In this document: positions 34,221 to 51,136 of the stretch, piece after piece | How positions within the stretch are numbered: position 1 is the stretch's first letter | Layout of the letters: each line of letters begins with the position of its first letter | NCBI GenBank assembly: GCA_043825735.1 | Contig: JBDRRP010000040.1 | Location: forward strand, 124,001 to 186,009 | Direction of reading: 5' to 3' | From: Pseudomonadota bacterium | GTDB taxonomy: Bacteria; Desulfobacterota; Desulfobacteria; Desulfobacterales; JBDRRP01 | Length of the DNA: 62,009 nucleotides | Translations under genes and position numbers: made by a program | The notes under the pieces: model-generated | The model's database searches: none | What the model saw: the letters and a program-made list of their open reading frames with translations, nothing else | Told to the model about the DNA's origin: nothing

Positions 34221-35249
34221 TCAATACGCGTAGTCTCCTGACAGATCTTCGTCGGTCACCTTGCCCCGGAAGAGGCGGTAAGCCCAGATCTGGTAGGCGA
34301 TCACCACAGGAATGAATACGGCGACCACTGTGAGCATGATTTTGAGGGTCAAGGGGCTGGACGAGGCGTTGTAGGCAGTGAGGGAGAAATAGGGCCGGAT
34401 GGTGGATGGCAGCATATTTGGAAACAGTCCGATGACTCCGAAAAACGTTGCCCCGGCGATGGTTGCCGCTGACGCCAGCCAGGCCTTGAAATAGTCCTGC
34501 CTTGCCAGCAAAAGACGCGTGGCCCCCAGTGCAGCAACGGTCACGGCAATGATGAGAAACAGGGCCGGATGAGCGGTGTAGTTGTCATAGAGTCCGGTGG
34601 CAAATTTGCTGGCGACGAGAAAGATGACCGCCACCACCAGAAGCGCGGGCCACAGCTTTCTAGCGGCGGTAACGGAGCGGGTATGCAGGTCGCCTTCGGT
34701 CTTGATGGCCAGCCACAGGGCGCCGTGAACCAGAAACAGCAGCAGAAACAGGACGCCGCCGATCAGGCCGTAAGGGTTGAGCAGGGTTAACAGGTTCCCG
34801 TGATAGACCCCCTGGGCATCGATGGGAATGCCCTTGAAAATATTTGCGAAGGCCACACCGAACAGGACCGCCGGCAGTGCGCTGCCCACAAAGATGCCCG
34901 TGTCCCACAGCCGGGTCCAGCGCGGGTCATCGATTTTGCCCCGGAACTCGAATGACACGCCTCGGATGATCAGCGCAAAGAGCACCAGCATCAGGGCCGA
35001 GTACAGTGACGAGAACATCACGGCATAGACCTTTGGAAAAGCCGCAAAAGTGACGCCGCCAGCGGTGAGCAGCCAGACCTCATTGCCGTCCCATACCGGG
35101 CCGAGGGAGTTGATCATCACCCGTTTGTCCCGCTCGGATGCACCCAGAAAAGGATAGAGGGCGCCGACACCAAAATCGAATCCGTCGGTGATGAAAAAGA
35201 TCGCCCACAAAAGGCCCCAAAGAAAAAACCAAATCGCCTGTAATTCCAT
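34221..35249 (-). CDS. cydB: Cytochrome bd oxidase subunit II
   Basis: DGFDFG, GPVWDGNEVWL, RGVSFEFR. Confidence 0.96.
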   Translation of the reverse strand: MELQAIWFFLWGLLWAIFFITDGFDFGVGALYPFLGASERDKRVMINSLGPVWDGNEVWLLTAGGVTFAAFPKVYAVMFSSLYSALMLVLFALIIRGVSFEFRGKIDDPRWTRLWDTGIFVGSALPAVLFGVAFANIFKGIPIDAQGVYHGNLLTLLNPYGLIGGVLFLLLFLVHGALWLAIKTEGDLHTRSVTAARKLWPALLVVAVIFLVASKFATGLYDNYTAHPALFLIIAVTVAALGATRLLLARQDYFKAWLASAATIAGATFFGVIGLFPNMLPSTIRPYFSLTAYNASSSPLTLKIMLTVVAVFIPVVIAYQIWAYRLFRGKVTDEDLSGDYAY

Positions 35250-35309
35250 GAAAATATCTCCCTTGTTAAAATCCTATCCGCCGGTTGACGAAGTGCAATC
35301 ACCGGCGGT

Positions 35310-36635
35310 TCAGCGCGACTTTTCCGGTGTCGGTGACATCGCCGGGCCTTTTTTGGCGTGGCTGGCGATGAGATAAAACCCAAGGGCGCCCAGCAGTGTG
35401 TACACCACGAAAAAGCCGCCCAGCGAGGCGATCACCTGTAGCGTGGACACCGGGGATACGCCGCTTGAGGTTTTCATCAGGCCATAGACGATCCAGGGCT
35501 GGCGACCGACTTCAGCTAAAAGCCACCCCATTTGAATGGCCAGATATGGTAGCGGAATCGCCCACAGCATGGTTTTCAGGTAAAGCGGGCTCTGTTCAAG
35601 CGTGTTGCGTTTGAACCAGCCGACAATCATTAGCAGGGGAAACGCGGTGCCCAGTGCCACCATGACGCGGAAAGAAATAAACGTCGGCAGTACCGGCGGC
35701 CGTTCATTCCGGGGGAAGTCTTTGAGTCCGATTACTTCGGCATCGATGTCGTGGTGGCCCAGCAGGCTGAGTCCGCCGGGTATTGATCCGATCTGGACGA
35801 TATTTTTCTCACCGGTTTCGTCCGGGATGGCGAAAAGATGGACCGGTGCGCGGGTGGTTGTTTCCCAGTGGGCCTCCATGGCGGCCAGTTTGGCCGGTTG
35901 TACCTGGGTGACATGAACGGCATGCCAGTCACCGTTGACAGCGGTGAAGACCGAAAAGACCAGTCCAAAGACCAGCGCGATGCGAAACGATGCAGTGAAC
36001 ACTTCGCGATGTTGCTTTTTCAGAAGGTGGTAGGCGCTGACGCCCATCACAAAAAACGCAGCCAGCAGAACAGACGCGCCGATGGTGTGGATGATGGTCA
36101 GCAGGCCGAATTTGTTTAGCACTACCTCGGTGAAGCTGACCAGCTCCGCCCGTCCGTCTCGAAGGGTGAACCCCACGGGTTGCTGCATCCAGCCGTTGGC
36201 GGTAAGAATCCATATGGCCGACACGTTGCTGGCGCCGGCCACCAGCCACATCACCGTGGCATGGGCCTTTTTCGACAACCGTTGCCAGCCGAACACCCAC
36301 ACGCCGATCATGGTCGACTCGAGGAAAAAGGCCAGGGCCGCTTCGATGGCCAGAAGACTGCCGAAGACATCGCCCACATAGGCCGAATATCCGGACCAGT
36401 TGGTACCGAACTGGAATTCGAGCGTAATCCCGGTGACCACGCCGACTGCGAAATTGATCAGAAACAGCTTGCCCCAGAATTTGGTCATGGTGAGGTATTT
36501 TTCTTCCCCGGTTCTCACATACCGGGTTTCCATATAGGCGATGATGATGGACAAGCCCAGCGTCAGAGGCACAAAAAGAAAATGGAACATGGTCGTCGAG
36601 GCAAACTGCAGCCGCGATAGCATTAACGTGTTCAT
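35310..36635 (-). CDS. cydA: Cytochrome bd oxidase subunit I
   Basis: SRLQF...HFLFVP, EFQFGTNW, QPAKLAAME, EVGRQPW. Confidence 0.96.
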   Translation of the reverse strand: MNTLMLSRLQFASTTMFHFLFVPLTLGLSIIIAYMETRYVRTGEEKYLTMTKFWGKLFLINFAVGVVTGITLEFQFGTNWSGYSAYVGDVFGSLLAIEAALAFFLESTMIGVWVFGWQRLSKKAHATVMWLVAGASNVSAIWILTANGWMQQPVGFTLRDGRAELVSFTEVVLNKFGLLTIIHTIGASVLLAAFFVMGVSAYHLLKKQHREVFTASFRIALVFGLVFSVFTAVNGDWHAVHVTQVQPAKLAAMEAHWETTTRAPVHLFAIPDETGEKNIVQIGSIPGGLSLLGHHDIDAEVIGLKDFPRNERPPVLPTFISFRVMVALGTAFPLLMIVGWFKRNTLEQSPLYLKTMLWAIPLPYLAIQMGWLLAEVGRQPWIVYGLMKTSSGVSPVSTLQVIASLGGFFVVYTLLGALGFYLIASHAKKGPAMSPTPEKSR

Positions 36636-36842
36636 TGAAACTCCTTCTTCACATTCGGCCGCTTCATTTTGTGCTGCCGCGGCGTTGTCGTGCCACCGAC
36701 GATGGGACGGGGCTTTCATCCGGGCGCAAATATCCTATCCATTCCCCGGAGGCGATCTCCGGGGCTGGTGCGATCATCATCTGGAGTCGATGGCGCGATG
36801 TGAGATCAGCCGGTCAAACCGGCCGACAGATTCCGCTCGTGA

Positions 36843-39506: not shown

Positions 39507-39863
39507 ATGTTGACCATAGAGTCCATCCATGCCGACAGCCGATTGCTCAATGACATTGACTGGGACATGACGCCCGAAGATGCTGTAACCCGCTATCTGG
39601 AGTGGGGAAACAATCCTGCTCTCGGCAATCACCGGGTGAAGTCAAAATCCGATTACTCGGTTTACTTCGTGGTGAATACGTGGCGGGATCCGGTCATCTA
39701 TCTCATCCGGCGCAATTCAGAGGGCGCCGAAGAGTTGGCCGTGATCGACATCCCCGCGCCGATACGAAAGCGCTATCTCAAAGCCATGGGCGATTTGAAA
39801 GGGGTCTACCCTGTCGATGGCGAGATTCGGGAATGGCTGTACGGCAGACTTTACGACGCCTGA
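39507..39863 (+). CDS. DVU0772-family protein
   Basis: IDWDMTPEDAVTRYLEWGNN...YFVVNTW...LIRRNSE. Confidence 0.8.
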   Translation: MLTIESIHADSRLLNDIDWDMTPEDAVTRYLEWGNNPALGNHRVKSKSDYSVYFVVNTWRDPVIYLIRRNSEGAEELAVIDIPAPIRKRYLKAMGDLKGVYPVDGEIREWLYGRLYDA

Positions 39864-40030: not shown

Positions 40031-41215
40031 CTATTTGCGTTCATCGATAGGGACAAACGCACATTCTTCGGGCCCGCAGTAGTCGCCGACGTAGTCGGAC
40101 GCCGGTCGATAGAGGGCCGCTTTGGGGGCCGCACCGGCATAGCGCTCTTCGATGACATGAGCGGTCCAGCCGGCAATCCGAGAGATGGCAAACACCGGTG
40201 TGAACAGGTCCACGGCGATGCCCATGGCATAATACAGCGATGCGCTGTAAAAATCGACGTTGACGTAGATGTCGATCCCTTTTCGTTTCTTAAAGGCAGC
40301 CTTGCCCTTTTTTTCCAAAATGGTGGACATCTCATACCACTGGGGCTGACCGATCCGCTGGCCCATGATCTTGCTCATGGGAGCCAGGATGTGGGCGCGG
40401 GGGTCATCGGTTTGATACACGGCGTGTCCGAGGCCGAAAATCACGCGGCCGGCATCCAGCTCCGTGGCGATATAGTCGTCCACGTTGGCCGCAGAGCCGA
40501 TTTTCAGGAGCATTTCCATCACGCGGACATTAGCGCCCCCGTGCAGTTCACCGGAAAGCGACCCGATGGCCCCGGCGATGGCCGCGTACATGTGCGCCCG
40601 TGTGGATGCGATCTGCCGGGCGGAGAAGGTCGATGCGTTAAAGGAATGCTCCGCATGCAGGATGAGGCAGACATCGAAAAAGTGCGCCACATCATCTTCC
40701 GGCATGTTTCCCGTCAGCATGTAAAGGAAATTGGCGGCGTGAGAGAGCGACGCATCCGGCGCCACAGGCTCCTTGCCGTTGCGGATGCGCTCCCAGGCGG
40801 CTAAAACGGTGGCCAGTCGGGCCACCAGGCGGTTCGCCATGCGCAAAGCGCCTTCCCGGGTGGTATCACCGGTATCCGGATCGAACTGGGCCAGTATGCA
40901 GACGCATGCCTGCAAAACATCCATGGGCATGGCGTCTGCGGGCATCAACTTCATCATATCAACGATCGCTTGGGGGATGGCGCGCTGGCTGGCCAGGTCA
41001 TTTCGAAATGAGATCAACTCATCGGCAGTGGGCAGTTTCTCATAAAAGAGCAGAAACACGATTTCCTCAAACGAAGCACTTTTTGCAAGGTCTTTGGCAA
41101 GATAGCCGCGATAGATCAACTTGCCGGCGGCACCGTCCACATCGCTGATCTTGGTTGTCGCTACCGTAACGCCTCTGAGGCCCGTATTGACGGTTGGGGT
41201 GCATTCTTCCACCAT
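40031..41215 (-). CDS. gltA: Citrate / 2-methylcitrate synthase
   Basis: GLRGV, LIYRGY, HAEHSFNAST, LHGGAN, GHAVY..DPR, NVDFYS. Confidence 0.88.
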   Translation of the reverse strand: MVEECTPTVNTGLRGVTVATTKISDVDGAAGKLIYRGYLAKDLAKSASFEEIVFLLFYEKLPTADELISFRNDLASQRAIPQAIVDMMKLMPADAMPMDVLQACVCILAQFDPDTGDTTREGALRMANRLVARLATVLAAWERIRNGKEPVAPDASLSHAANFLYMLTGNMPEDDVAHFFDVCLILHAEHSFNASTFSARQIASTRAHMYAAIAGAIGSLSGELHGGANVRVMEMLLKIGSAANVDDYIATELDAGRVIFGLGHAVYQTDDPRAHILAPMSKIMGQRIGQPQWYEMSTILEKKGKAAFKKRKGIDIYVNVDFYSASLYYAMGIAVDLFTPVFAISRIAGWTAHVIEERYAGAAPKAALYRPASDYVGDYCGPEECAFVPIDERK

Positions 41216-41408: not shown

Positions 41409-42752
41409 ATGCTGCGCATTCACGCTAAAAACGGTTATGACCTACGGGTGTCGGGAGCACCGACCGATCAAATAGTGGCGGCCAAAGCGCCCCGGCGTGT
41501 GGCCGTAGTGCCCGAGCGCATTCCTTTCATCAAGCCGAGGCTTGTTGTTCGCAGTGGAGACACGGTGCGCATCGGTTCGCCACTGTTCTTCGACAAGCGC
41601 CACCCGGCACTGCACTACCGCTCACCCGGGGCGGGCACGATCAGCGATATCCGTTTCGGTCCCCGGCGTGTCATCTCTCAGATCATTATCGATCTGGATG
41701 ACTCCGAAGCGGCTGAACCACTGCTCCAGGCAAGACTCGATCCAACCGCCACGCTGAACCGGCAGGCCGTTACCACGGCCTTGGTGAACGGCGGATTGTG
41801 GCCGCTGATCCGGGCGCTGCCATACAGGGATATGGCCCCTGTCGACGGTCCGCAGCCACCGGCGCTCATCGTTTCGCTGTCGGATCGCGAACCGTTTCAC
41901 CCTCATCCGGATATCTATCTGGATGGCGCTGCCGATCTCTTCACGCAAGGCCTTGCCTTTCTAAAACCACTGGCGTCCAAACTCATGGTGACGGTGGACG
42001 AGGGCGCAGCAAAGACCATCGCCATGCTGGGCGGCGCCGTTACCCATTGCCACCGGGGGGTGTATCCGGCCGGCGATCCCGGGGTGACACTCTACCATAC
42101 CCGCCGCTCGTCCGCAGACAACCCGTCATGGTTTATCCGCGGACAGGATGTGTTGCTGGTGGCCTCCCTGCTGAGCACCGGCGTCTATCCGACCGATCGC
42201 CTGGTCGCTGTCGGCGGGCCCGCCGCCCCCCATGCCGTTCACGTCAAAACACGTTTGGGTGCGCCACTGTCAACACTGGTGGATCTTCCGAAGGATGCCG
42301 CCATTCGGACCATTAGTGGTGGTCTGTTTACGGGGGCACGGGCATCTGTTGATGATTACCTCGGGTTTTTCGAGACGGCGATCACAGTGCTTGGCGAGGG
42401 CGCGGCCGAAGAGTTTTTGGCCTTGATCATGCCGGGGCGCCGGCGGCCGAGTTATTCCCGGGTGTTTTTGTCGACCCTCACCGGCGGCGATATGAACGTC
42501 GATTGCAACATGCACGGAGATCTGCGGGCGTGCGTGGCATGCAGCTACTGCAATCGGGTCTGCCCGGTGGAGATGCTTCCACAGTTGGCGTTCAAGAGCC
42601 TTCTTGCGGAAGAGATCGAGGAGGCCCTGGCTCACGGCCTTTTGGACTGCGTCGAATGCGGTTTGTGTTCCTATGTCTGCCCGTCAAAGATCGATATCAG
42701 CGGCATTCTCACCCAGGGCAAGCGCAATTACTACAAGGAGCAGCAGCAATGA
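41409..42752 (+). CDS. nqrA: Na+-NQR subunit A with intact 2x[4Fe-4S] domain
   Basis: NqrA-type N-terminus (GYDLRVSGAP, LFFDK, SPGAG, YPAG, TRLGA, ISGG); C-terminal CVACSYCNRVCP and CVECGLCSYVCP. Confidence 0.85.
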   Translation: MLRIHAKNGYDLRVSGAPTDQIVAAKAPRRVAVVPERIPFIKPRLVVRSGDTVRIGSPLFFDKRHPALHYRSPGAGTISDIRFGPRRVISQIIIDLDDSEAAEPLLQARLDPTATLNRQAVTTALVNGGLWPLIRALPYRDMAPVDGPQPPALIVSLSDREPFHPHPDIYLDGAADLFTQGLAFLKPLASKLMVTVDEGAAKTIAMLGGAVTHCHRGVYPAGDPGVTLYHTRRSSADNPSWFIRGQDVLLVASLLSTGVYPTDRLVAVGGPAAPHAVHVKTRLGAPLSTLVDLPKDAAIRTISGGLFTGARASVDDYLGFFETAITVLGEGAAEEFLALIMPGRRRPSYSRVFLSTLTGGDMNVDCNMHGDLRACVACSYCNRVCPVEMLPQLAFKSLLAEEIEEALAHGLLDCVECGLCSYVCPSKIDISGILTQGKRNYYKEQQQ

Positions 42753-43939
42753 CGCCGAATCCAGTCAAACGCATTTTTGACCGGTATCGTCCCCATTTCA
42801 GCCGTGGCGGGCGATTGGCGCGGCTGCATGCCTTTTTCGAAGCCATCGAGACCGTTTTTTTCCTGCCGGGCCGTAAAACCGAAAGCGCTCCGCATGTGCG
42901 CGACGGGCTCGATGTGAAGCGGTTCATGTTCTATGTGATTGTGGCCCTGCTGCCGTGCCTTTTCTTCGGTATCTACAATACCGGGGTGCAGTCCCGGCTG
43001 GCCTCCGGTCTTCAGCCGGTGTTTGTGTCCGCCGTCATCGACGGACTGTGGATTGTTGTGCCCATGGTGATCGTGACTTATGCGGTGGGATTTTTCTGGG
43101 AGATCGTGTTTGCCGTGGTGCGCGGACACGCGATCAGCGAAGGGCTGTTTGTCAGCTGCATGCTGCTGCCCCTGAGCCTGCCGCCAACGACACCGCTGTG
43201 GCAGGTCGCGCTGGGTATCAGCTTTGGCATCGTGGTGGGCAAAGAAATTTTCGGTGGCACGGGGCGTAACTTTCTCAATCCCGCCCTGGCCGGCCGCGCC
43301 TTTCTTTATTTTGCCTATCCTGTTCAGATGTCCGGTGACCATGTCTGGACGGTGCTTCAGGGGGCGCGGGAGACCGCCGTAGATGCCTTCACCGCTGCCA
43401 CGCCGCTGGCCATCTCGGCAGGGGCCCAGATGAACGCGTCGGTGGAAAGCCTGCTCTCCGGCGCCGGTTATTCCTTCGGCCGCCTCTTCTGGGGGCTGTA
43501 TCCCGGCAGCATCGGCGCCACTAGTGCGGCATTGTGCCTGCTGGGCGCGGTGTTTCTCGTATTGACCCGGATCGCCAGCCACCGCATCATTTTCGGCGGG
43601 ATCGCCGGCGTACTGGCGACCGGCACCCTGCTCAATTGGCTGGCCTCGCCCCAGAGTCTTCCGTTTTTATCGCTCAACCCGTTTTATCACCTGGTCATGG
43701 GCGGATTTGCTTTTGCGCTGGCCTTCATGGCGACGGAACCGGTGACAGCGCCGGACACCGATGCGGCCCGATGGCTCTACGGCTTTCTCATCGGCGCGCT
43801 GACCGTTGTCATCCGCGTTTTCAACCCGGCCTTCCCCGAGGGGGTCATGCTGGCGATTTTGTTCATGAATGTGTTTGCCCCGTTGATGGACCAGATCGTT
43901 GTGATGGTCCGGCTCAAGAAAAGGATCCCCAATGTCTGA
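42749..43939 (+). CDS. nqrB: Na+-NQR subunit B
   Basis: APHVRDG.D.KR, KEIFGGTGRN, AYP.QMSGD, flavinylation site TAAT, PEGVMLAILF. Confidence 0.92.
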   Translation: MTPNPVKRIFDRYRPHFSRGGRLARLHAFFEAIETVFFLPGRKTESAPHVRDGLDVKRFMFYVIVALLPCLFFGIYNTGVQSRLASGLQPVFVSAVIDGLWIVVPMVIVTYAVGFFWEIVFAVVRGHAISEGLFVSCMLLPLSLPPTTPLWQVALGISFGIVVGKEIFGGTGRNFLNPALAGRAFLYFAYPVQMSGDHVWTVLQGARETAVDAFTAATPLAISAGAQMNASVESLLSGAGYSFGRLFWGLYPGSIGATSAALCLLGAVFLVLTRIASHRIIFGGIAGVLATGTLLNWLASPQSLPFLSLNPFYHLVMGGFAFALAFMATEPVTAPDTDAARWLYGFLIGALTVVIRVFNPAFPEGVMLAILFMNVFAPLMDQIVVMVRLKKRIPNV

Positions 43940-44663
43940 TACCATGCGCTCACTGCTTTTTGCTGTCGCATTGTGTCTGGTGTGCAGTCTGCTGCTGACT
44001 GCCGCCGCTACCGGACTGAAGGGCTACCAGAGGGAAAATATCGAACTGGACCGTCGCCGGAATCTACTCAAATCCGTCAATCTGCTCTCGCCCGACGGGG
44101 GCAATACGGCCCAGGAGATCCGCAGCATTTATGAGGCCAACATCACGGAGATCGCCGTGGATCGAGCAGGGCGCGTGGTGCCGGCGGGCGAGCGTTCTCC
44201 CGGCGACCTGCCGGTGTATCTTTACCGCACGGACGGCGCGATTCGCGCCTATATCATCCCCATCGACACGCGTGGACTCTGGGGAAAGATCAAGGGCTAC
44301 CTGGCCCTCGACAGCGACGGGGCCACCGTGGCCGGGTTTACCGTCTACCAGCATTCCGAGACACCCGGTCTGGGCGGTGAAATCGAGCAGCGATGGTTTC
44401 AGAAAAATTTCGTAGGGAAAAAAATTGTCGGCCGGTCGGGGGATTTCGTGTCCATTTCCGTTGCCAAAGGGGCGGCCGCCGCTGTTCCGGCAGACAAGCA
44501 GCTCAACTATGTGGACGGGATCAGCGGGGCGACGCTGACGGGACGGTTTCTGACGGCCGGACTCAAGAACATCCTCGAAGAATACGAGCCGGTATCGGTG
44601 CAGTTCCGGGGACACCGGATGCTCCGGATGCCGGCGGCCGAGACGGAAAAGGCCAAGCCGTAG
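43932..44663 (+). CDS. nqrC: Na+-NQR subunit C
   Basis: LCLVCS, GLWG, ETPGLG, VDGISGATLT (FMN-Thr). Confidence 0.92.
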   Translation: MSDTMRSLLFAVALCLVCSLLLTAAATGLKGYQRENIELDRRRNLLKSVNLLSPDGGNTAQEIRSIYEANITEIAVDRAGRVVPAGERSPGDLPVYLYRTDGAIRAYIIPIDTRGLWGKIKGYLALDSDGATVAGFTVYQHSETPGLGGEIEQRWFQKNFVGKKIVGRSGDFVSISVAKGAAAAVPADKQLNYVDGISGATLTGRFLTAGLKNILEEYEPVSVQFRGHRMLRMPAAETEKAKP

Positions 44664-44732
44664 CGCGGCATCAATGGTACCGACCCAACGCCCCCGGGGA
44701 GTTTGGGACGGGCACGAGTTAAGGAGATGACA

Positions 44733-45347
44733 ATGGCGGGCAAACGCGCCAGTGCGATGAAGACGCTGTCGGATCCGCTGATCGAGAATAATCCCGTCAG
44801 CATCCAGATGCTCGGTATCTGTTCGGCCCTGGCTGTTACCGTACAGATGAAAACCGCGGTTGTAATGGGGATCAGCCTCACCCTCGTGGTGGCGTTTTCC
44901 AGCCTCATTATTTCGCTGATGCGTACCATCATTCCTCGAAACATCCGCATCATTGTCGAGTTGACCGTCATTGCCTCCCTGGTCATTCTTGCCGATGAAC
45001 TGATCCGGGCGTTTCTCTTTGACATCAGCAAGCAGCTCAGCGTTTTTGTGGGACTCATTATCACCAACTGCATCGTCATGGGCCGCGCCGAGACTTTCGC
45101 ACTCAATAACCCGCCGCACCTGGCCTTCCTGGACGGACTGGGAAACGGCATGGGATACGGGGCCGTCCTGCTGACGGTGGCCTTCATTCGTGAACTGCTG
45201 GGGGCCGGCAAGCTGTTCGGATACCAGGTCGTTCCGGATGCCGTTTACGCCGCCGGCTACGAGAACATGGGCTTCATGCTCCTGGCACCGGCGGCCTTCA
45301 TCATTATCGGATTCATGGCATGGATCCAAAAGAGCCTTCGCCGGTAA
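44733..45347 (+). CDS. nqrD: Na+-NQR subunit D
   Basis: NNP...[32 protein letters not shown]. Confidence 0.94.
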
Positions 45348-45373
45348 ACACCGCTTCCTGGGGCTGACGCATC

Positions 45374-45982
45374 ATGGAAAATTATCTCAGCATTTTTCTC
45401 AATTCGGTTTTCGTAGGCAACATCCTGCTGGCCTATTTTTTAGGGATGTGCAGCTTTGTAGCCGTTTCCGGCAACCTTCGCACCGCCTCCGGTCTTGGAT
45501 TCGCGGTAGTCTTTGTTCTGGCCATCACCGCACCGGTCAACTGGCTGGTATACTACTACCTGTTGGCGCCGGGGGCGCTTGCCTGGGCGGGCCTGCCGAC
45601 CGTAGACCTTAGCTTCCTTAAACTCATCACTTTTATCGCGGTCATCGCCGCCATCGTGCAGATTGTCGAGATGGTGATCGATCGATATTCCCAGGCACTG
45701 TACAACGCACTGGGAGTATTTTTGCCTCTCATTGCCGTCAACTGTGCCATCCTTGGAGCTGCGCTGTTCATGGTTGAGCGGCAATACGGTTTCTGGGAAT
45801 CGGTTGTTTTCGGTATCGGATCCGGTACGGGGTGGGCCATGGCCATTATTTCGATGGCGGCCATCCGCAACAAACTGAAATATGCCAACCCGCCGGAAGG
45901 GCTGCGCGGCTATGGCCTGACCATGATCGTTACCGGATTGATGGCCATGGGGTTTATGATGTTTTCGGGAATCGTTCTGTGA
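45374..45982 (+). CDS. nqrE: Na+-NQR subunit E
   Basis: [29 protein letters not shown]. Confidence 0.94.
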
Positions 45983-46031
45983 GATGCCGGCCGGTGGCGG
46001 CCTTGCATTCTTTTTGCTTGGAGAAAGAACC

Positions 46032-47252
46032 GTGATCTATTTCATCAGCGCCGGCGTTTTCTCGGCGGTCATCGTCTCTCTGGTCATCACCCTTCTGGTG
46101 GTGGAGTCGCGCCTGGTGAAAAAGGGAGACAGTCGCCTGGTGATCAATGGCGATGTCGACAACAGCCTGACCGCCGCTACCGGCAAGACATTGCTCTCGG
46201 CGCTGCTGGGCGAAGGAATCCTGCTGGCCAGCGCCTGTGGCGGCAAGGGCACCTGTGGCACCTGCAAATGCGTCGTGGAGGACGGTGGCGGTGATGTGCT
46301 GCCCACCGAGTTGAGCCATCTCAACCGCCGGGAGAAGGCGGAAAATGTTCGCCTGGCCTGCCAGCTCAAGGTCAAGCAGGATCTTGCGATCCGAATCCCG
46401 GAATCGATTTTCAGCATTAAAAAATACACCGCAACGGTGGTCAGCAACCGCAATGTGGCCACCTTCATCAAGGAGTTGGTCATGGAACTCGGCCCGGGGG
46501 AATCCCTCGATTTCAAGGCCGGGGCCTATATCCAGATCGACATCCCTGAGTACTCGGTGAGCTACAAGACATTCGACGTGGCCGACCGGTACCGGTCGGC
46601 ATGGGAGCAGTTCAAGCTGTGGGATTTGACCGCGGCCAGCACCGAAGTGGTCAACCGGGCCTATTCGCTGGCCAACCCGCCGTCCGACAACCGGCGGCTC
46701 AGGCTCACCATCCGAATCGCCACCCCGCCGCCCGGGCATCCGGAATTGCCGACGGGTGTGGGCTCTTCCTATGCCTTCAGCCTGAAACCCGGCGACACCG
46801 TGTCGCTGAGCGGGCCTTACGGTGATTTTTTCGTCAAGGACACCGATCGGGAGATGTGCTTCATCGGCGGCGGCGCCGGCATGGCGCCCATGCGCTGCCA
46901 CATTTTACACCAGCTGCGGTCGGTGAACACGACCCGGCCGATGACCTTCTGGTATGGTGCGCGTTCGCGGCAGGAAATGTTCTATGACGAGGAATTCAGC
47001 GATCTTGCGGCGCGTTTTGAAAACTTCTCCTATCACGTGGCGCTTTCCGAGCCCCAGCCGGAGGATCACTGGGACGGCCCGGTGGGGTTCATCCACCAGG
47101 TGGCCCACGATCTCTACCTCAGTGAGCATGAGGACCCCACCGAGATCGAATACTATCTATGCGGCCCACCGATGATGATTTCCTCCGTGAAGCGGATGCT
47201 CGACAGTCTCGGCGTGGATCCGGAGATGATCGCCTTCGACGATTTCGGATAA
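46032..47252 (+). CDS. nqrF: Na+-NQR subunit F
   Basis: [2Fe-2S] SACGGKGTCGTC...RLACQ, RAYS, GGGAGMAP, YLCGPP, DDFG; GTG start. Confidence 0.95.
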   Translation: MIYFISAGVFSAVIVSLVITLLVVESRLVKKGDSRLVINGDVDNSLTAATGKTLLSALLGEGILLASACGGKGTCGTCKCVVEDGGGDVLPTELSHLNRREKAENVRLACQLKVKQDLAIRIPESIFSIKKYTATVVSNRNVATFIKELVMELGPGESLDFKAGAYIQIDIPEYSVSYKTFDVADRYRSAWEQFKLWDLTAASTEVVNRAYSLANPPSDNRRLRLTIRIATPPPGHPELPTGVGSSYAFSLKPGDTVSLSGPYGDFFVKDTDREMCFIGGGAGMAPMRCHILHQLRSVNTTRPMTFWYGARSRQEMFYDEEFSDLAARFENFSYHVALSEPQPEDHWDGPVGFIHQVAHDLYLSEHEDPTEIEYYLCGPPMMISSVKRMLDSLGVDPEMIAFDDFG

Positions 47253-47518: not shown

Positions 47519-47851
47519 CTAAAAGGCCATTTTTTCCGGCGGCCGCCGCTCAGGGACGTACTCGTGGGGGATCTTGCCGGCGTTCCATGCCTCGGTGACG
47601 TACAGGTTGCAGTAGCAGGAGCCGAATTCGGCCACATCGGGTGTGCGGTACACGCAGGGGCAGATGATGTCCTTGTCGGCGTCACGATCGCCGGAGGCGA
47701 GGCGACACGGACAGACCATGTACCCGTATCGCGCTTTGTTGGTCAGCAGTGCTTCGAGAAGATCGAATACCCGCTCTTTGTCCGTGCTGAAGAAATACCC
47801 CTTGGGTTCCTGCGCCTTTTTAAGCATGGCGTGAAGTTGCTCTGCGTCCAT
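47519..47851 (-). CDS. Ferredoxin:thioredoxin reductase catalytic subunit-like protein
   Basis: CPCR...ICPC...CYC motifs. Confidence 0.9.
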   Translation of the reverse strand: MDAEQLHAMLKKAQEPKGYFFSTDKERVFDLLEALLTNKARYGYMVCPCRLASGDRDADKDIICPCVYRTPDVAEFGSCYCNLYVTEAWNAGKIPHEYVPERRPPEKMAF

Positions 47852-48114
47852 TACAGGCCCAGCGCCTCCTTGATCTCTTTTTCCTTGTAACCGACGATGA
47901 CGGTGTTGCCGATGATGACGGTCGGAAAGGAGCATTTGGGATTGAATTTTTTTACGTCTTCGAGGATGGCCTTGCGCTCTTCGCCTTCCAGCAGATCCAC
48001 ATCGACGAAATCATACTGGATGGTGCAGTCGGCCAACAGTTTCTTTGTGGATTTGCAGTGGCTGCAAGTGCTCAGTGAGAAGATTTTTACGGGTTTCATG
48101 GTGTTATCACTCAT
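47851..48114 (-). CDS. Glutaredoxin/NrdH-like redoxin
   Basis: CSHC, SFPT, IVGY; translationally coupled to the FTR-like gene. Confidence 0.9.
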   Translation of the reverse strand: MSDNTMKPVKIFSLSTCSHCKSTKKLLADCTIQYDFVDVDLLEGEERKAILEDVKKFNPKCSFPTVIIGNTVIVGYKEKEIKEALGL

Positions 48115-48271
48115 GCCAGAATCCTTTCTTCTGTGCCACCGGTACAGTGACGTGTGCGCCTCGTGCTGGCTTTCGGGTGTGGAAGTCAATAAGGGGTTTT
48201 CCCGGCGCCAAGTTGTCCAGCTTTTTGATCCGCTGCCTGCTAGTAAACCATTCCCCGGTATCATTCAATAG

Positions 48272-48964
48272 CTATTCCAGGTGTATGCCGGACATGAACG
48301 CCCGCGTGCGCTGGAGTGTGTGACCGCCGCTGCGGATGCGCGACTGAAGTGTTTTCAGATCGGAGGGGGTGTCGATATCGTGCAGCGGCGGCAGTGTTTC
48401 CACCTGCAGACCGGCTGCGCGAAGGCGGCCGACCGTGATGTCGATGACACCGGCGGTGCCCCAGGGGATATCATCGGCGAAGACCTGCGACGGCAGGCAA
48501 CCGGCGGCAAATCCGATCATGTAGTACCCCCCGTCGACGGCGGGCCCCACGGTGCACCCGTTTTGCCGGACACCCTCAAAAGCCTCGGCCACGATGCCCG
48601 GGTGAATCTCGGGGATATCGGTTCCAATGCACAGCGCCTGGTCGTATCCGCTGGCAAAGGCCCACGCGAAGGCGCTGTGCATGCGGGCCCCGAGGCTGCC
48701 GCCTTGCTGGGCGACGATTGCCCATTGAGTGCTCAGCCAAGCGCGTATCACGGGTTCGGCATCCGGCGGGTGGAAAAAGACGGCAACGTCGGTGCGGCAG
48801 GCCGCGAGCATTTCCAGGGTGTCCTCAACAAAGCATCGGTATAGGGCCGCAATCGCCTCGGAATCGAGACGGGCGGCAAGGCGGGTTTTCACCGTTCCGG
48901 CAATGGGCGCCCTTACGAACACAAGCACACACCGGCGCAGGGTGGGAGAAGGGGATAGCGGCAT
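48272..48964 (-). CDS. TIGR04282/DUF2064 glycosyltransferase-like protein
   Basis: VKTRL, LGARM, IGTDIP, GPAVDGGYY, DIDT. Confidence 0.88.
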   Translation of the reverse strand: MPLSPSPTLRRCVLVFVRAPIAGTVKTRLAARLDSEAIAALYRCFVEDTLEMLAACRTDVAVFFHPPDAEPVIRAWLSTQWAIVAQQGGSLGARMHSAFAWAFASGYDQALCIGTDIPEIHPGIVAEAFEGVRQNGCTVGPAVDGGYYMIGFAAGCLPSQVFADDIPWGTAGVIDITVGRLRAAGLQVETLPPLHDIDTPSDLKTLQSRIRSGGHTLQRTRAFMSGIHLE

Positions 48965-48973
48965 GTTGCCAGT

Positions 48974-51136
48974 TTACCTGCCGGGCGCATTCCGGGTCAA
49001 CAGGTCCGCGACTTTTTCGGGCCGGTTTTCCGGGGCCATGCAATTGGTGCCGATGCAAACATAGGCGGTGGCCTTGCCGGATACCGTGACCATGTGCTCG
49101 ACGGCAGGCAGATGGCGGCTCAGCAGTGCCCGCACCTCCGGTGGCGCCACGACGACGATCTCGGCGTCGGGGCCGGCGTGCCGGCGTGCCGTAGACAGCA
49201 TGCGGGCGGTATCCGGTGCGCTGCTGCTGCCGGCGATAAATATCGTGACCGGCTCGGATGCCGCTACCGCCATCAAGGATACCATCCGCGGCGCGCTGGT
49301 GGGGTAGGCTGCGATCCGGGGCCCCAGGGCTGCAAACGTTTTTTCGGCCGCATCCGTAAAGCGGGTCTCGTGGAGCAACCGGCCCAGGCGCAGCAGCGCC
49401 GAGGCGGCGGCGGCGTTGGCCGAGGGCATAACCCCGTCGGTGATCTCCACGGCGTTGACAATGAGCTCCGGCGCAAGATTGGCGTCGGCCATGCGGAACC
49501 CGCCGGCCTCTGCATCGAAAAATCGCGATAGCAGCACTTCGGCCAGATCGACGGCCCACGTCAACCACGCCGCTTCCGGGCTGCCGCTGAACAGGTCCAG
49601 CAGAGCGTTCAGAAGATGGGCGTAATCGGCAGCCATACCGGGAATCTGTCGATCGTTCTGGCGCCAGCGCCGATAGAGCTGCCGATTTCCGGCATCGTAG
49701 AGGTGGCGGTGCAGAAAACCGGCGCCGCGGGCGGCTTCCCGGTGCAAGGCGGGCGCATTCAGGTGGATCGCCGCCTGGGCCAGTGCCGAAATCATCAGTG
49801 CGTTCCACTCGGTCAATATCTTATCGTCCAGTTGAGGCCGAGGCCTGTTGCAGCGCACCTGGAACAGTTTTTCCCGTGCATTCCTGAGATGTGTCGCCGC
49901 CACCGGCACCGGTATTCCCTGTCGGGCGGCCACCGAAGCGACGGTACGGGCTGTGTAAAGGATGTTTTTGCCGGTAAAATCGCCGTGGGGATCGGCCGAA
50001 ACGTTACCGCCCGGCAGGACCCCGTAGCGGTTCATAAACACCGCGGCTTCCTCGGGGGCCAATCGCCTCTGGATGTCATCCATTGTCCATATGTAAAAGG
50101 CGCCTTCGAGGCTGCTGGACGCAGGGGCCTCCGGCGGGGGGCTGTCGGCATCTTCGGCAGAGTAAAAACCGCCATCCGTGTGAGCGAGATCCCTGAGTAC
50201 GTAGCCGATGGTGCCCTCGGCGACGCGCCGGTAGCGCGGGTCTTTGGTCAGGGCAAAGGCCCGGGTGTAGATGGCGACCAGCTGCGCATTGTCATAGAGC
50301 ATTTTTTCAAAATGGGGCACGTGCCACTGCCGGTCTGTGGCATACCGATGGAAGCCCCCGCCGATGTGGTCGTGGATACCGCCGCTGGCGATGGCGTTGA
50401 GCGTCGCCAGGCTCATGTCGCGCGCACTGGGGCCTTCACTGTCTGCCGCTGGCTGCGCCAGCAGAAAATCGATGAGCGGGGGCATGGGGAATTTGGGGGC
50501 GCTGCCGAAACCGGCCCACTCGCCGTCAAAAGTTTTCTTCAGATGGGCCACCGCGGTGGTGGCCATGAGCGCGGGCGACGGTGCGCCGCTATTTGCGGGG
50601 GCTGTCGCCTGCTGCTGCAGGGCCGCGGTCAGGCGCTCGGCCGAATCATCGATGCGGCGGCGCTGGTGGGCGGATTGCCACAACTCGGCAATGCGGCCCA
50701 GCAGATCGCGCCAGGAAATGATGCCATGCCGGGTGGCTGGCGGAAAGTAGGTGCCACCAAAAAACGGCTTTCTATCCGGCGTCAGAAAAACGTTCAGCGG
50801 CCACCCCCCCGCACCGGTCAGCACACTCACCGCGCTCATGTAGACGGCGTCGATATCGGGACGCTCCTCCCGGTCCACCTTGATGCTGACAAAATGCCGG
50901 TTCATGACGTCGGCGACCGATTGATCCTCGAAGGATTCCTTTTCCATGACGTGGCACCAGTGACAGGTGGCGTAGCCGATGGACACCAGAATGGGGCAGT
51001 CCCGGCGCCGGGATTCATCAAAGGCTTCCTGACCCCAGGGATACCAGTCCACCGGGTTGTGGGCGTGCTGGAGCAGATAAGGGCTTTTTTCAGCGGCCAG
51101 CCGATTGGTGGCGGGCGCCGGAATGTTTTCGACCAT
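48974..51136 (-). CDS. YyaL/SSP411 (DUF255) thioredoxin-domain protein
   Basis: [36 protein letters not shown]. Confidence 0.94.

What the first reader, a model, noticed from the sequence alone, without database searches (positions are those of the whole stretch)
41409..42752. NqrA retaining two complete RnfC-type [4Fe-4S] motifs
Seen: the first gene of a complete nqrA-F operon has an NqrA-type N-terminus but ends in two full CxxCxxCxxxCP motifs (CVACSYCNRVCP, CVECGLCSYVCP). Known: Vibrio-type NqrA is homologous to RnfC but is regarded as cofactor-less, keeping only remnants of these cysteines, and NQR is thought to derive from Rnf. Inference: this may be an ancestral or hybrid complex with an extra Fe-S wire that couples ion pumping to ferredoxin or another acceptor, not only quinone.
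Basis: partly seen in the sequence, partly recalled or inferred. Interest (0 to 1): 0.75.

Follow-up and report, generated by a model that had tools for sequence, protein, structure and literature searches.

The report
NQR pump with iron-sulfur NqrA subunit
This sulfate-reducer genome encodes a complete NADH-driven NQR membrane pump whose A subunit, described in textbooks as cofactor-free, still has both iron-sulfur cluster sites of its Rnf ancestor; the form is widespread and looks like the older state of the enzyme.

Summary
Window 41409-42752 encodes a 447-aa NqrA, the first gene of nqrABCDEF (41409-47252). It carries two complete CxxCxxCxxxCP motifs.

The protein is an NqrA, not an RnfC. 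Its fold matches V. cholerae NqrA at TM 0.89-0.91 and RnfC at 0.71-0.73. RnfC's FMN/NAD loop is degenerate.

The eight Cys are conserved in 120 of 120 close homologues and in 79 of 80 related species genomes. They also occur in distant NqrA clades that sit in full nqrA-F operons.

Trees built without the ferredoxin domain place the 8-Cys forms as a basal grade. The cofactor-less Vibrio-type forms are nested inside it, alongside one-cluster forms. An AU test rejects 8-Cys monophyly (p 0.005). The domain is vertically inherited, not swapped in from RnfC.

"Ancestral" is therefore supported. "Hybrid" and "ferredoxin-coupled" are not.

The likely mechanism is inferred only: two [4Fe-4S] clusters extend the electron chain from the NqrB riboflavin into NqrA. 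What accepts the electrons is unknown.

No paper I could search describes this form. This scan has reported the same form before on other DNA.

The parts
41409..42752 (+). nqrA, 447 aa: NqrA-type N-terminal three domains plus a C-terminal 2x[4Fe-4S] ferredoxin-like domain
   Evidence: Pfam NQRA_N, NQRA_2nd, NQRA_SLBB and Fer4_7/9/8/17/10. Best NCBIfam hit NF003761 at 395.9 bits, below its 450 cut-off. The AlphaFold model (pLDDT 95.5) matches V. cholerae NqrA at TM 0.89-0.91 and RnfC at 0.71-0.73.
42531..42566 (+). First cluster motif CVACSYCNRVCP (aa 375-386)
   Evidence: Translation. Cys375/378/381/385 are invariant in alignments A1 (49 sequences) and A3 (97 sequences).
42648..42683 (+). Second cluster motif CVECGLCSYVCP (aa 414-425)
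   Evidence: Translation. Cys414/417/420/424 are invariant in A1 and A3.
41790..41831 (+). Degenerate counterpart of RnfC's FMN-binding glycine loop (GGLWPLIRALPYRD, aa 128-141)
   Evidence: It aligns to GLGGAAFPTHVKL of canonical RnfC and is one residue shorter. There is no Complex1_51K hit. It also aligns to V. cholerae NqrA Phe131-Lys138, a segment reported as labelled by ubiquinone photoaffinity probes (Kishikawa 2022, passage read).
42752..43939 (+). nqrB; its start overlaps the nqrA stop by one base
   Evidence: NF003756 491.9 bits, cut-off 414. E 1.7e-96 to V. cholerae NqrB 7xk3_B. The FMN-attachment Thr context DAFTAAT aligns to the V. cholerae SGAT segment.
43932..44663 (+). nqrC with FMN_bind domain (GISGATLTG)
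   Evidence: TIGR01938 179.3 bits, cut-off 144. Pfam FMN_bind. Sequence.
44703..45347 (+). nqrD
   Evidence: NF006777 301.4 bits, cut-off 235. The two membrane Cys are visible in the sequence; their role as [2Fe-2S] ligands is recalled from the V. cholerae literature.
45374..45982 (+). nqrE
   Evidence: TIGR01940 303 bits, cut-off 247.55.
45984..47252 (+). nqrF: the NADH/FAD/[2Fe-2S] entry subunit that defines NQR as opposed to Rnf
   Evidence: TIGR01941 581.3 bits, cut-off 295. Pfam Fer2, FAD_binding_6 and NAD_binding_1.
47519..47935 (-). Ferredoxin:thioredoxin-reductase catalytic-subunit-like gene, convergent with nqrF. A positionally linked neighbour, not shown to be a partner.
   Evidence: Pfam FeThRed_B, 1.5e-19. 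Found with a Grx-like gene downstream of nqrF in 21 of 35 genome loci that hold >=8 kb downstream. It also occurs in 48 of 70 genomes of the order that lack NqrA.
47851..48264 (-). Glutaredoxin-like gene, upstream of the FTR-like gene in the same transcription direction
   Evidence: Pfam Glutaredoxin, 2.9e-11. Synteny.
40031..41215 (-). Citrate synthase, divergent from nqrA. A conserved neighbour.
   Evidence: Pfam Citrate_synt, 1.4e-123. Upstream of nqrA in 36 of 56 genome loci that hold >=3 kb upstream.

Best explanation
This is a genuine six-subunit NQR (NADH:quinone oxidoreductase ion pump) of a Desulfobacterales sulfate or sulfite reducer. Its NqrA has lost RnfC's FMN/NAD site, as every NqrA has, but it has kept RnfC's C-terminal ferredoxin domain with all eight cysteines. 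It therefore most likely binds two [4Fe-4S] clusters. This is the older state of NQR; the cofactor-free NqrA of Vibrio is a later reduction, reached in steps through one-cluster forms.

Proposed mechanism. Shown by sequence: NADH enters at NqrF, and all canonical cofactor motifs of NqrB to NqrF are present. Inferred by homology with Rnf: after the riboflavin of NqrB, electrons can pass to the two clusters of NqrA, as riboflavin passes them to [4Fe-4S]RnfC-2 and then RnfC-1 in Rnf. Least certain: from the distal cluster electrons reach an acceptor bound at or near the former FMN pocket of NqrA, most likely the menaquinone head group, so the net reaction would still be NADH:menaquinone reduction coupled to ion pumping.
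For: - Operon identity. NqrB to NqrF score above the equivalog cut-offs and no RnfB is present.
- NqrA fold: the pLDDT 95.5 model matches V. cholerae NqrA over its whole length at TM 0.89-0.91 and RnfC at 0.71-0.73. The ferredoxin domain therefore sits where the remnant domain sits on NqrB.
- Cys conservation: 120 of 120 homologues; 79 of 80 species-genome loci; invariant across 97 diverse sequences. Flanking residues P386, P391, K396, G418, L419, P425, S426, K427 and I428 are >=91% conserved among 74 8-Cys NqrAs and less so in cofactor-less forms.
- Real operons: NqrF is present in 40 of 45 related genome loci with >=4.8 kb downstream. It is also present in 6 of 6 distant 8-Cys loci with >=4.6 kb downstream (L110, L113, L114, L115, L123, L125).
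- Ancestry: FastTree (155 rows) and IQ-TREE (95 rows) on N-terminal columns only; AU test p 0.0048 (45 rows); ferredoxin-domain identities.
- Rnf electron path and distances: Vitt 2022, passages read.
- Acceptor site: the ubiquinone head-ring labelling site in V. cholerae NqrA (Phe131-Lys138; Kishikawa 2022, passage read) aligns to the ex-FMN loop.
- Supporting genes in the genome: ApbE flavin transferase and dsrA. The D. autotrophicum genome paper lists a menaquinone pool for such organisms (passage).
Against: - There is no biochemical, spectroscopic or expression evidence for this enzyme or any 8-Cys NQR.
- Prevotella NQR, which its homology-modelling paper describes without any NqrA cofactor, reduces menaquinone according to the same paper, so the clusters are not needed for that chemistry.
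- The clusters were lost several times: 5 changes of 8-Cys versus not on the tree, and 8-Cys rows nested among cofactor-less ones. They are therefore dispensable for the core pump.
- The N-terminal pocket is not more conserved in 8-Cys forms than in cofactor-less forms.
- The 2025 review (passage read) says electrons pass directly from riboflavin to ubiquinone in the membrane, not through NqrA. The passages of Hau 2023 that I read do not bear on this point.
- NqrA scores below the NCBIfam equivalog cut-offs.
- Tree roots rest on a distant outgroup. The 150 representatives were ranked by similarity to an 8-Cys query, which favours 8-Cys forms.
Confidence: 0.55

Rival explanations
1. Second port. 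The two clusters make NqrA a cytoplasmic electron exit or entry for a soluble or protein partner, so the pump serves an acceptor other than quinone. Candidates are a thiol/disulfide system such as the neighbouring FTR-like and glutaredoxin-like pair, a sulfate-reduction carrier, or ferredoxin feeding electrons in.
For: The distal cluster has no FMN behind it. FTR-like enzymes take single electrons from Fe-S proteins (established knowledge). The FTR-like/Grx pair lies next to nqr in 21 of 35 genome loci and 7 of 12 metagenome loci with >=8 kb downstream. The linkage also survives in a second arrangement, directly upstream and co-directional, in L022 and L185.
Against: In 151 genomes of the order the FTR-like gene is found in 48 of 70 genomes without NqrA and is missing in 9 of 81 with it, so it does not depend on NQR. 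All linked loci belong to one order, so the synteny may be by descent. No such neighbours were seen at the distant 8-Cys loci L113 and L115. Thioredoxin-level and ferredoxin-level acceptors are too reducing for an NADH-driven pump: Vitt 2022 gives Nqr a span of about -300 to +100 mV.
Confidence: 0.2
2. Structural or vestigial clusters. The clusters bind but only stabilise the C-terminal domain that clamps NqrA to NqrB, or are held by inertia. Electrons leave riboflavin directly to quinone in NqrB, as in Vibrio.
For: Repeated, stepwise loss without loss of the operon. The remnant domain keeps the same fold and place in V. cholerae NqrA. NqrA's C-terminal region anchors it to NqrB (Kishikawa 2022, passages read).
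Against: The eight Cys and their flanks are strictly conserved across clades that share only about 25-45% identity, and in Desulfobacterales for 120 of 120 homologues. This is stronger than is usual for an inert relic. One-cluster forms keep exactly a complete ligand set for one cluster (5 Cys in the right pattern).
Confidence: 0.2
3. The motifs no longer bind clusters, or the gene product is not part of a working NQR.
For: No direct evidence of metal binding or expression. No RNA holder was listed for the operon. 5 of 45 related loci lack nqrF in the DNA held.
Against: The CxxCxxCxxxCP spacing is canonical, twice over. Pfam Fer4 models score above cut-off. The domain is modelled with high confidence. 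Conservation is total. All other cofactor motifs of the operon are intact.
Confidence: 0.05

Closest known systems
Na+-NQR of Vibrio cholerae (NqrABCDEF; PDB 7XK3, 8A1U, 8A1Y; NqrA alone 4U9O)
   Same: Six genes in the same order. NqrB to NqrF score above the equivalog cut-offs. NqrA has the same fold over its whole length (TM 0.89-0.91; sequence E 4.7e-61). The RnfC FMN/NAD loop is lost in both.
   Different: V. cholerae NqrA has 0 of 4 Cys at motif 1 and 2 of 4 at motif 2 and is described as cofactor-free. Here all 8 are present. NqrA scores below the NCBIfam NqrA cut-offs. The host is an anaerobic sulfate or sulfite reducer (dsrA), expected to use menaquinone.
RnfC of the Rnf complex (PDB 7ZC6_C, 9ERI_C, 8AHX_C)
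   Same: C-terminal ferredoxin domain with two CxxCxxCxxxCP motifs (E 2.7e-07 over aa 374-441), and the same overall architecture (TM 0.71-0.73). In Rnf these clusters take electrons from the riboflavin of RnfD.
   Different: No Complex1_51K/FMN domain hit and a degenerate glycine loop. The operon has NqrF instead of RnfB. The ferredoxin domain is only 25% identical to RnfC once the Cys columns are masked.
'Nqr' of cultured Desulfobacteraceae as annotated in genome papers (D. autotrophicum HRM2, D. phosphitoxidans, D. toluolica)
   Same: Same kind of organism and operon. A named homologue from Desulfonema magnum (P0054) carries both motifs.
   Different: [quoted passage not shown]
Earlier reports of this scan on other genomes
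   Same: NqrA with both RnfC-type motifs in nqrABCDEF operons of other lineages. They also report one-cluster forms and that the form is widespread and undescribed.
   Different: Different DNA. New here: a test of the FTR-like neighbour, the RnfC-like-plus-NqrF operons, trees that exclude the ferredoxin domain with an AU test, and a high-confidence model.

Membership tests
Na+-NQR (NqrABCDEF) | Six genes nqrA-F in one operon, with NqrF (2Fe-2S + FAD + NADH) as the entry subunit | tested here: met
   TIGR01941 581 bits (cut-off 295); Pfam Fer2, FAD_binding_6 and NAD_binding_1.
Na+-NQR (NqrABCDEF) | NqrB, C, D and E reach the curated equivalog scores | tested here: met
   NqrB 491.9/414, NqrC 179.3/144, NqrD 301.4/235, NqrE 303/247.55.
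Na+-NQR (NqrABCDEF) | NqrA reaches the curated equivalog score | tested here: not met
   best NF003761 395.9 (cut-off 450); TIGR01936 280 (cut-off 321). The Pfam NqrA domains are all above cut-off and the fold matches at TM 0.9.
Na+-NQR (NqrABCDEF) | NqrA carries no redox cofactor, as described for the V. cholerae enzyme | tested here: not met
   Eight Cys in two complete [4Fe-4S] motifs. Actual binding was not tested.
Na+-NQR (NqrABCDEF) | Covalent-FMN Thr motifs in NqrB and NqrC, and membrane Cys pairs in NqrD/E | tested here: met
   Sequences. The NqrB alignment to 7xk3_B covers the FMN site. The motif definitions are recalled from the literature.
Na+-NQR (NqrABCDEF) | Maturation factors ApbE and NqrM | tested here: inconclusive
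   One ApbE copy elsewhere in the genome. For NqrM nothing rang in the genome or in any control genome.
Na+-NQR (NqrABCDEF) | NADH:quinone activity coupled to Na+ (or H+) export | not testable with these tools
   Needs biochemistry.
Rnf complex (RnfABCDGE) | RnfB polyferredoxin subunit in the operon | tested here: not met
   None among the six genes. A separate Rnf operon with its own RnfB lies on another contig.
Rnf complex (RnfABCDGE) | RnfC with a NuoF-like FMN/NADH domain | tested here: not met
   No Complex1_51K hit at E<=0.01. The glycine loop and the NGAECEP motif are degenerate.
Rnf complex (RnfABCDGE) | RnfC C-terminal 2x[4Fe-4S] domain | tested here: met
   (TIGR01945 matches aa 372-442).
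2x[4Fe-4S] bacterial-type ferredoxin domain | Two CxxCxxCxxxCP motifs in a Fer4 dicluster fold | tested here: met
   Pfam Fer4_7 30.9/27, Fer4_9 30/27, Fer4_8 28.6/27. The domain is modelled at pLDDT 93-98.
2x[4Fe-4S] bacterial-type ferredoxin domain | Clusters actually bound and redox-active | not testable with these tools
   Needs Fe/S analysis, EPR or a structure.

The most novel reading that the evidence does not exclude
The Fe-S wire in NqrA is a working second port. In anaerobes that keep it, NQR is not only an NADH:quinone reductase but also passes pump-coupled electrons to, or takes them from, a cytoplasmic partner through NqrA. On this reading the long-debated quinone-binding behaviour and unknown role of Vibrio NqrA are relics of that lost exit site. 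NQR would then have arisen from Rnf by swapping RnfB for NqrF first, as the RnfC-like-plus-NqrF operons in L166 and L168 suggest, and by stripping NqrA of FMN and then of its clusters only later.
Probability: 0.2. Interest if true: 0.85.

Novelty: new variant of a known kind. Interest (0 to 1): 0.66.

Why it matters
Reviews and structure papers state that NqrA has no cofactor and no assigned function. The standard origin story has RnfC becoming useless and losing its cysteines once RnfB was lost. Here a complete NQR keeps all eight cysteines. The same holds for 81 of 151 sampled genomes of the order that have NqrA, and for clades elsewhere, for example one named Candidatus Riflebacteria.

Three things follow if the clusters bind:
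- The cofactor inventory of NQR is incomplete for much of the family.
- The order of events in the Rnf-to-NQR transition can be read from living intermediates: RnfC-like with NqrF, then 8-Cys NqrA, then one-cluster forms, then none.
- The open question of what NqrA does becomes testable in cultivable sulfate reducers.

It also matters for energy budgets of Desulfobacterales, which are major carbon oxidisers in marine sediments.

Tried and rejected
- First model. A model built from a 49-sequence alignment had pLDDT 31-58 over aa 332-447. I replaced it with the 97-sequence model.
- AU test on the full set. The test on 95 rows under the mixture model did not finish in five runs. I reran it with 45 rows under LG+G4. 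That model is less safe against long branches, and the tested group was chosen after seeing the tree.
- Domain swap from RnfC ('hybrid'). Rejected from the ferredoxin-domain identities and signatures.
- FTR-like/glutaredoxin-like neighbours as an obligate partner. Not supported by the 2x2 profile: both 72, NqrA only 9, FTR-like only 48, neither 22, out of 151 genomes.
- Extra constraint on the ex-FMN pocket in 8-Cys forms. None seen.
- Expression. No RNA holder was listed for the operon; read laying was not used.
- NqrM. Nothing rang anywhere, including the controls.
- Taxon names. Names for the distant clades were mostly unavailable; about 7 of 30 looked-up clusters carried an organism name.
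- Exceptions without nqrF. I looked at two of the five (L015, L084). Unrelated ORFs follow nqrC or nqrD, and I did not resolve why.
- Not run. Complex prediction was not run, because NqrA-NqrB is a textbook pair and the FTR-like idea rests on neighbourhood only.
- Literature searches. Searches found no description of Fe-S in NqrA. Subscription journals are not covered, and I did not open the supplements of Reyes-Prieto 2014 (its Fig. S1 and S8 bear on this).
Full report
WHAT IS THERE

The window has about 58% G+C. Positions 41409-47252 carry six co-directional, tightly packed genes.
- The first gene (41409-42752, 447 aa) has the three Pfam NqrA domains: NQRA_N, NQRA_2nd and NQRA_SLBB.
- It also has a C-terminal 4Fe-4S dicluster domain (aa 371-429), with several Fer4 models above their cut-offs.
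- The next five genes score above the NCBIfam equivalog cut-offs for NqrB, C, D, E and F.
- NqrF has the Fer2, FAD_binding_6 and NAD_binding_1 domains.
- NqrA itself stays below the NqrA equivalog cut-offs. Its best hit is NF003761 at 395.9 bits against a cut-off of 450.
- No RnfB is in the operon.

The genome (6.8 Mb, 160 contigs) also holds:
- a separate Rnf operon on another contig;
- one ApbE gene;
- dsrA.

Its nearest relatives are uncultured Desulfobacterales (72% identity).

IS IT AN NqrA OR AN RnfC?

It is an NqrA.
- Against solved structures, the protein matches V. cholerae NqrA over aa 5-435 (E 4.7e-61). It matches RnfC only over aa 374-441 (E 2.7e-07).
- In that alignment V. cholerae NqrA has no Cys at motif 1 and two at motif 2.
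- A first model from 49 sequences was poor in the C-terminal third.
- A model from 97 diverse sequences (A3) reached pLDDT 95.5 and pTM 0.94, with the ferredoxin domain at 93-98.
- That model superposes on V. cholerae NqrA taken from the whole complex at TM 0.89-0.91 (rmsd 2.6-2.9 A). It superposes on RnfC at 0.71-0.73.
- RnfC's FMN and NAD motifs (GLGGAAFPT and NGAECEP in canonical RnfCs of the same phylum) are replaced by GGLWPL-IRALP and SLSDREP, as in cofactor-less NqrAs.
- Pfam finds no Complex1_51K domain.

So the FMN/NAD site is gone and the two-cluster domain remains.

HOW COMMON AND HOW CONSERVED

- All 120 best homologues (46-100% identity) have both CxxCxxCxxxC motifs. Their names include Desulfobacterales, Desulfobacteraceae and Desulfonema magnum.
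One of its two search patterns can also match cofactor-less forms, so 592 is not a count of 8-Cys forms.
- Of the 80 best loci from that scan, 79 carry both full motifs.
- In 151 sampled genomes of the same order, 81 have an NqrA match at E<=1e-40.
- Among the best 150 cluster representatives from 1.84 billion proteins, 72 have two motifs, 8 have one and 70 have none. This list is ranked by similarity to an 8-Cys query and so favours such forms.

Several one-motif forms keep exactly one full ligand set.
- Four rows (P0158, P0163, P0166, P0192) have '...CCCCC'. Two are named Elusimicrobiota and one Gemmatimonadota.
- Two rows (P0148, P0164) have 'CCCC...C'.

Distant 8-Cys clades (24-46% identity) sit in full nqrA-F operons. 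NqrF was found in 6 of 6 such metagenome loci with enough downstream DNA (L110, L113, L114, L115, L123, L125). One distant 8-Cys representative is named Candidatus Riflebacteria.

ANCESTRAL OR ACQUIRED?

I built trees from the N-terminal 355 residues only, so the trait's own columns were left out.

FastTree run:
- It used 155 rows: the query, 12 close homologues, 129 of the 150 representatives and 13 RnfCs of the phylum. 21 representatives were dropped for length under 400 or over 560 aa.
- Rooted on RnfC, it gives NqrA as one clade (support 99).
- All basal branches are 8-Cys.
- All but one of the 62 other rows fall in one nested clade (support 91). Most of these rows are cofactor-less. The exception, P0156, is cut short after motif 2's second Cys.
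- The basal members of that clade are one-cluster forms.

IQ-TREE run:
- It used 95 rows under LG+C20 PMSF with a quick search, and included metagenome operons.
- The order it gives, from the root, is RnfC; then eight RnfC-like subunits from operons that end in an NqrF-like gene; then four 8-Cys rows (support 100); then a core NqrA clade (support 100).
- Within the core clade, the query's group has 26 rows (support 100), of which 24 are 8-Cys.
- The cofactor-less forms again sit in one clade (support 97) beside one-cluster forms. Two 8-Cys rows are nested among them, which implies several independent losses.

AU test: holding all 8-Cys NqrAs together as one clade costs 55 log-likelihood units and is rejected (p-AU 0.0048). 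This used 45 rows under LG+G4, and the group was chosen after seeing the tree.

The alternative is that the domain was re-acquired from an RnfC. That fails: with the Cys columns masked, the query's ferredoxin domain is 43% identical to other 8-Cys NqrAs, 40-42% to one-cluster forms, 34% to cofactor-less NqrAs and 25% to RnfCs. It also shares the NqrA-type sequence around CPSKI.

Even without the tree, eight homologous Cys in both RnfC and many NqrAs make eight Cys the simplest ancestral state.

HOW IT PROBABLY WORKS

Shown: all parts of an NQR are encoded with intact cofactor motifs, and NqrA has two canonical cluster sites in a confidently modelled ferredoxin fold placed as in V. cholerae NqrA.

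Inferred from Rnf:
- There, electrons go from the riboflavin of RnfD to [4Fe-4S]RnfC-2 (11.7 A), then to RnfC-1, then to FMN and NAD+ (Vitt 2022, passages read).
- By homology, the NqrA clusters here would take electrons from the riboflavin of NqrB.

Behind the distal cluster there is no FMN.
- The loop that bound FMN in RnfC aligns with V. cholerae NqrA Phe131-Lys138.
- That is one of two segments reported as labelled by ubiquinone photoaffinity probes (Kishikawa 2022, passage read).
- I therefore favour a quinone head group, menaquinone in this host, as the acceptor at or near that pocket. This keeps the net reaction at NADH:quinone.

This last step is weak, for four reasons.
- The 2025 review has electrons pass directly from riboflavin to ubiquinone in the membrane.
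- Prevotella NQR, modelled with no cofactor in NqrA, reduces menaquinone.
- The clusters were lost repeatedly.
- The pocket is not more conserved in 8-Cys forms.

RIVALS

Second port for a soluble partner.
- The nqr operon is followed, on the opposite strand, by a unit encoding DUF255, DUF2064, a glutaredoxin-like protein and a ferredoxin:thioredoxin-reductase-like protein.
- The FTR-like/Grx pair is found downstream in 21 of 35 genome loci and 7 of 12 close metagenome loci with >=8 kb downstream. It lies directly upstream and co-directional in L022 and L185.
- The phyletic profile does not tie it to NQR. Of 151 genomes, 72 have both, 9 have NqrA only, 48 have the FTR-like gene only and 22 have neither.
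- Thioredoxin-level or ferredoxin-level acceptors are too reducing for an NADH-driven pump (potential span quoted).

Purely structural role. This fits the repeated losses, but it fits poorly with strict conservation of the eight Cys and their flanks over deep divergence.

No binding at all. This is unlikely.

WHAT IS KNOWN

- Reyes-Prieto 2014 (passages) lists NqrA as cofactor-free and says the critical cysteines were lost. It found Desulfobacteraceae NQR branching 'anomalously' early with Chlorobi/Bacteroidetes and explained this by gene transfer.
- The 2025 RNF/NQR review and Vitt 2022 both say NqrA has no redox cofactor.
- Genome papers on sulfate reducers treat their Nqr as the Vibrio enzyme.
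- Six full-text searches found no description of Fe-S in NqrA. The library lacks most subscription journals, and I did not open supplements.
- This scan has reported the same form on other genomes. My tests agree with those notes.

VERDICT

This is a real NQR with an Fe-S NqrA, one ordinary member of a large variant class that I found in no paper I could search. The class appears to be the ancestral form of NQR. Its function beyond cluster binding is inferred, not shown.

Noticed in passing
L166:8980-15651 and L168:8983-16488 (metagenome loci); also L148, L152, L162, L183, L188, L189: These operons begin with a gene that is still RnfC-like (Pfam RnfC_N + Complex1_51K + Fer4, 8 Cys) and end with an NqrF-like gene (Fer2 + FAD_binding_6 + NAD_binding_1). 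On the tree they branch between RnfC and NqrA. The canonical GxGGAxFP loop is already altered. Source names for three of them are Candidatus Omnitrophica, Dethiobacter sp. and Planctomycetota. L166 is followed by a Fer2 + NuoE-like gene and L168 by a multihaem cytochrome. NqrF-like was seen in 3 of 8 loci; the other five have under 3.3 kb downstream.
   Followed up: partly
Own genome, L009:7583-14360 (contig C16): A second pump operon: cytochrome c3-like gene, rnfC-D-G-E-A, and an RnfB fused to a GltD-like NAD(P)-binding flavoprotein (695 aa). Its RnfC keeps 8 Cys but lacks the FMN glycine loop and scores below the rnfC cut-off. A 2025 paper on Desulfobacteraceae notes an 'Rnf2' with different RnfB/C domains (passage read), so this is probably known.
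   Followed up: partly
window 47519-51136 (-): A transcription unit of a DUF255 thioredoxin-domain protein, DUF2064, a glutaredoxin-like protein and an FTR catalytic-subunit-like protein. It stays next to nqr in many Desulfobacterales in two different arrangements, yet the FTR-like gene is also common in genomes without NqrA.
   Followed up: yes
window 39507-39863 (+) and 40031-41215 (-): A 118-aa ORF with no Pfam family lies beside the citrate synthase that diverges from nqrA. Both recur upstream of nqrA in many related loci.
   Followed up: no
window 34221-36719 (-): Cytochrome bd quinol oxidase genes cydAB lie about 5 kb upstream of nqr. A CydA match also lies within 9 kb of nqrA in some related loci (L018, L031, L042, L077, L153, L174).
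   Followed up: no
window 42752-43939 (NqrB aa ~106): The residue aligned to position 141 of V. cholerae NqrB is Phe here. The best-matching chain (9lrr_B) has Ala there. From memory, Gly140/Gly141 are linked to quinone and korormicin binding. I did not check this in any paper.
   Followed up: no
L015, L019, L059, L062, L084 (genome loci); L127, L128, L169 (metagenome loci): These related loci have an 8-Cys nqrA with nqrB and nqrC (some also nqrD), but no nqrE or nqrF in the DNA held, although enough downstream DNA is present. In L015 and L084 unrelated ORFs follow. The cause could be truncated operons, rearrangements or assembly errors.
   Followed up: partly
G040:C70:14922-15935 (same-order genome): An RnfC-like match with one in-frame TGA. 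It could be selenocysteine, a frameshift or a broken gene.
   Followed up: no
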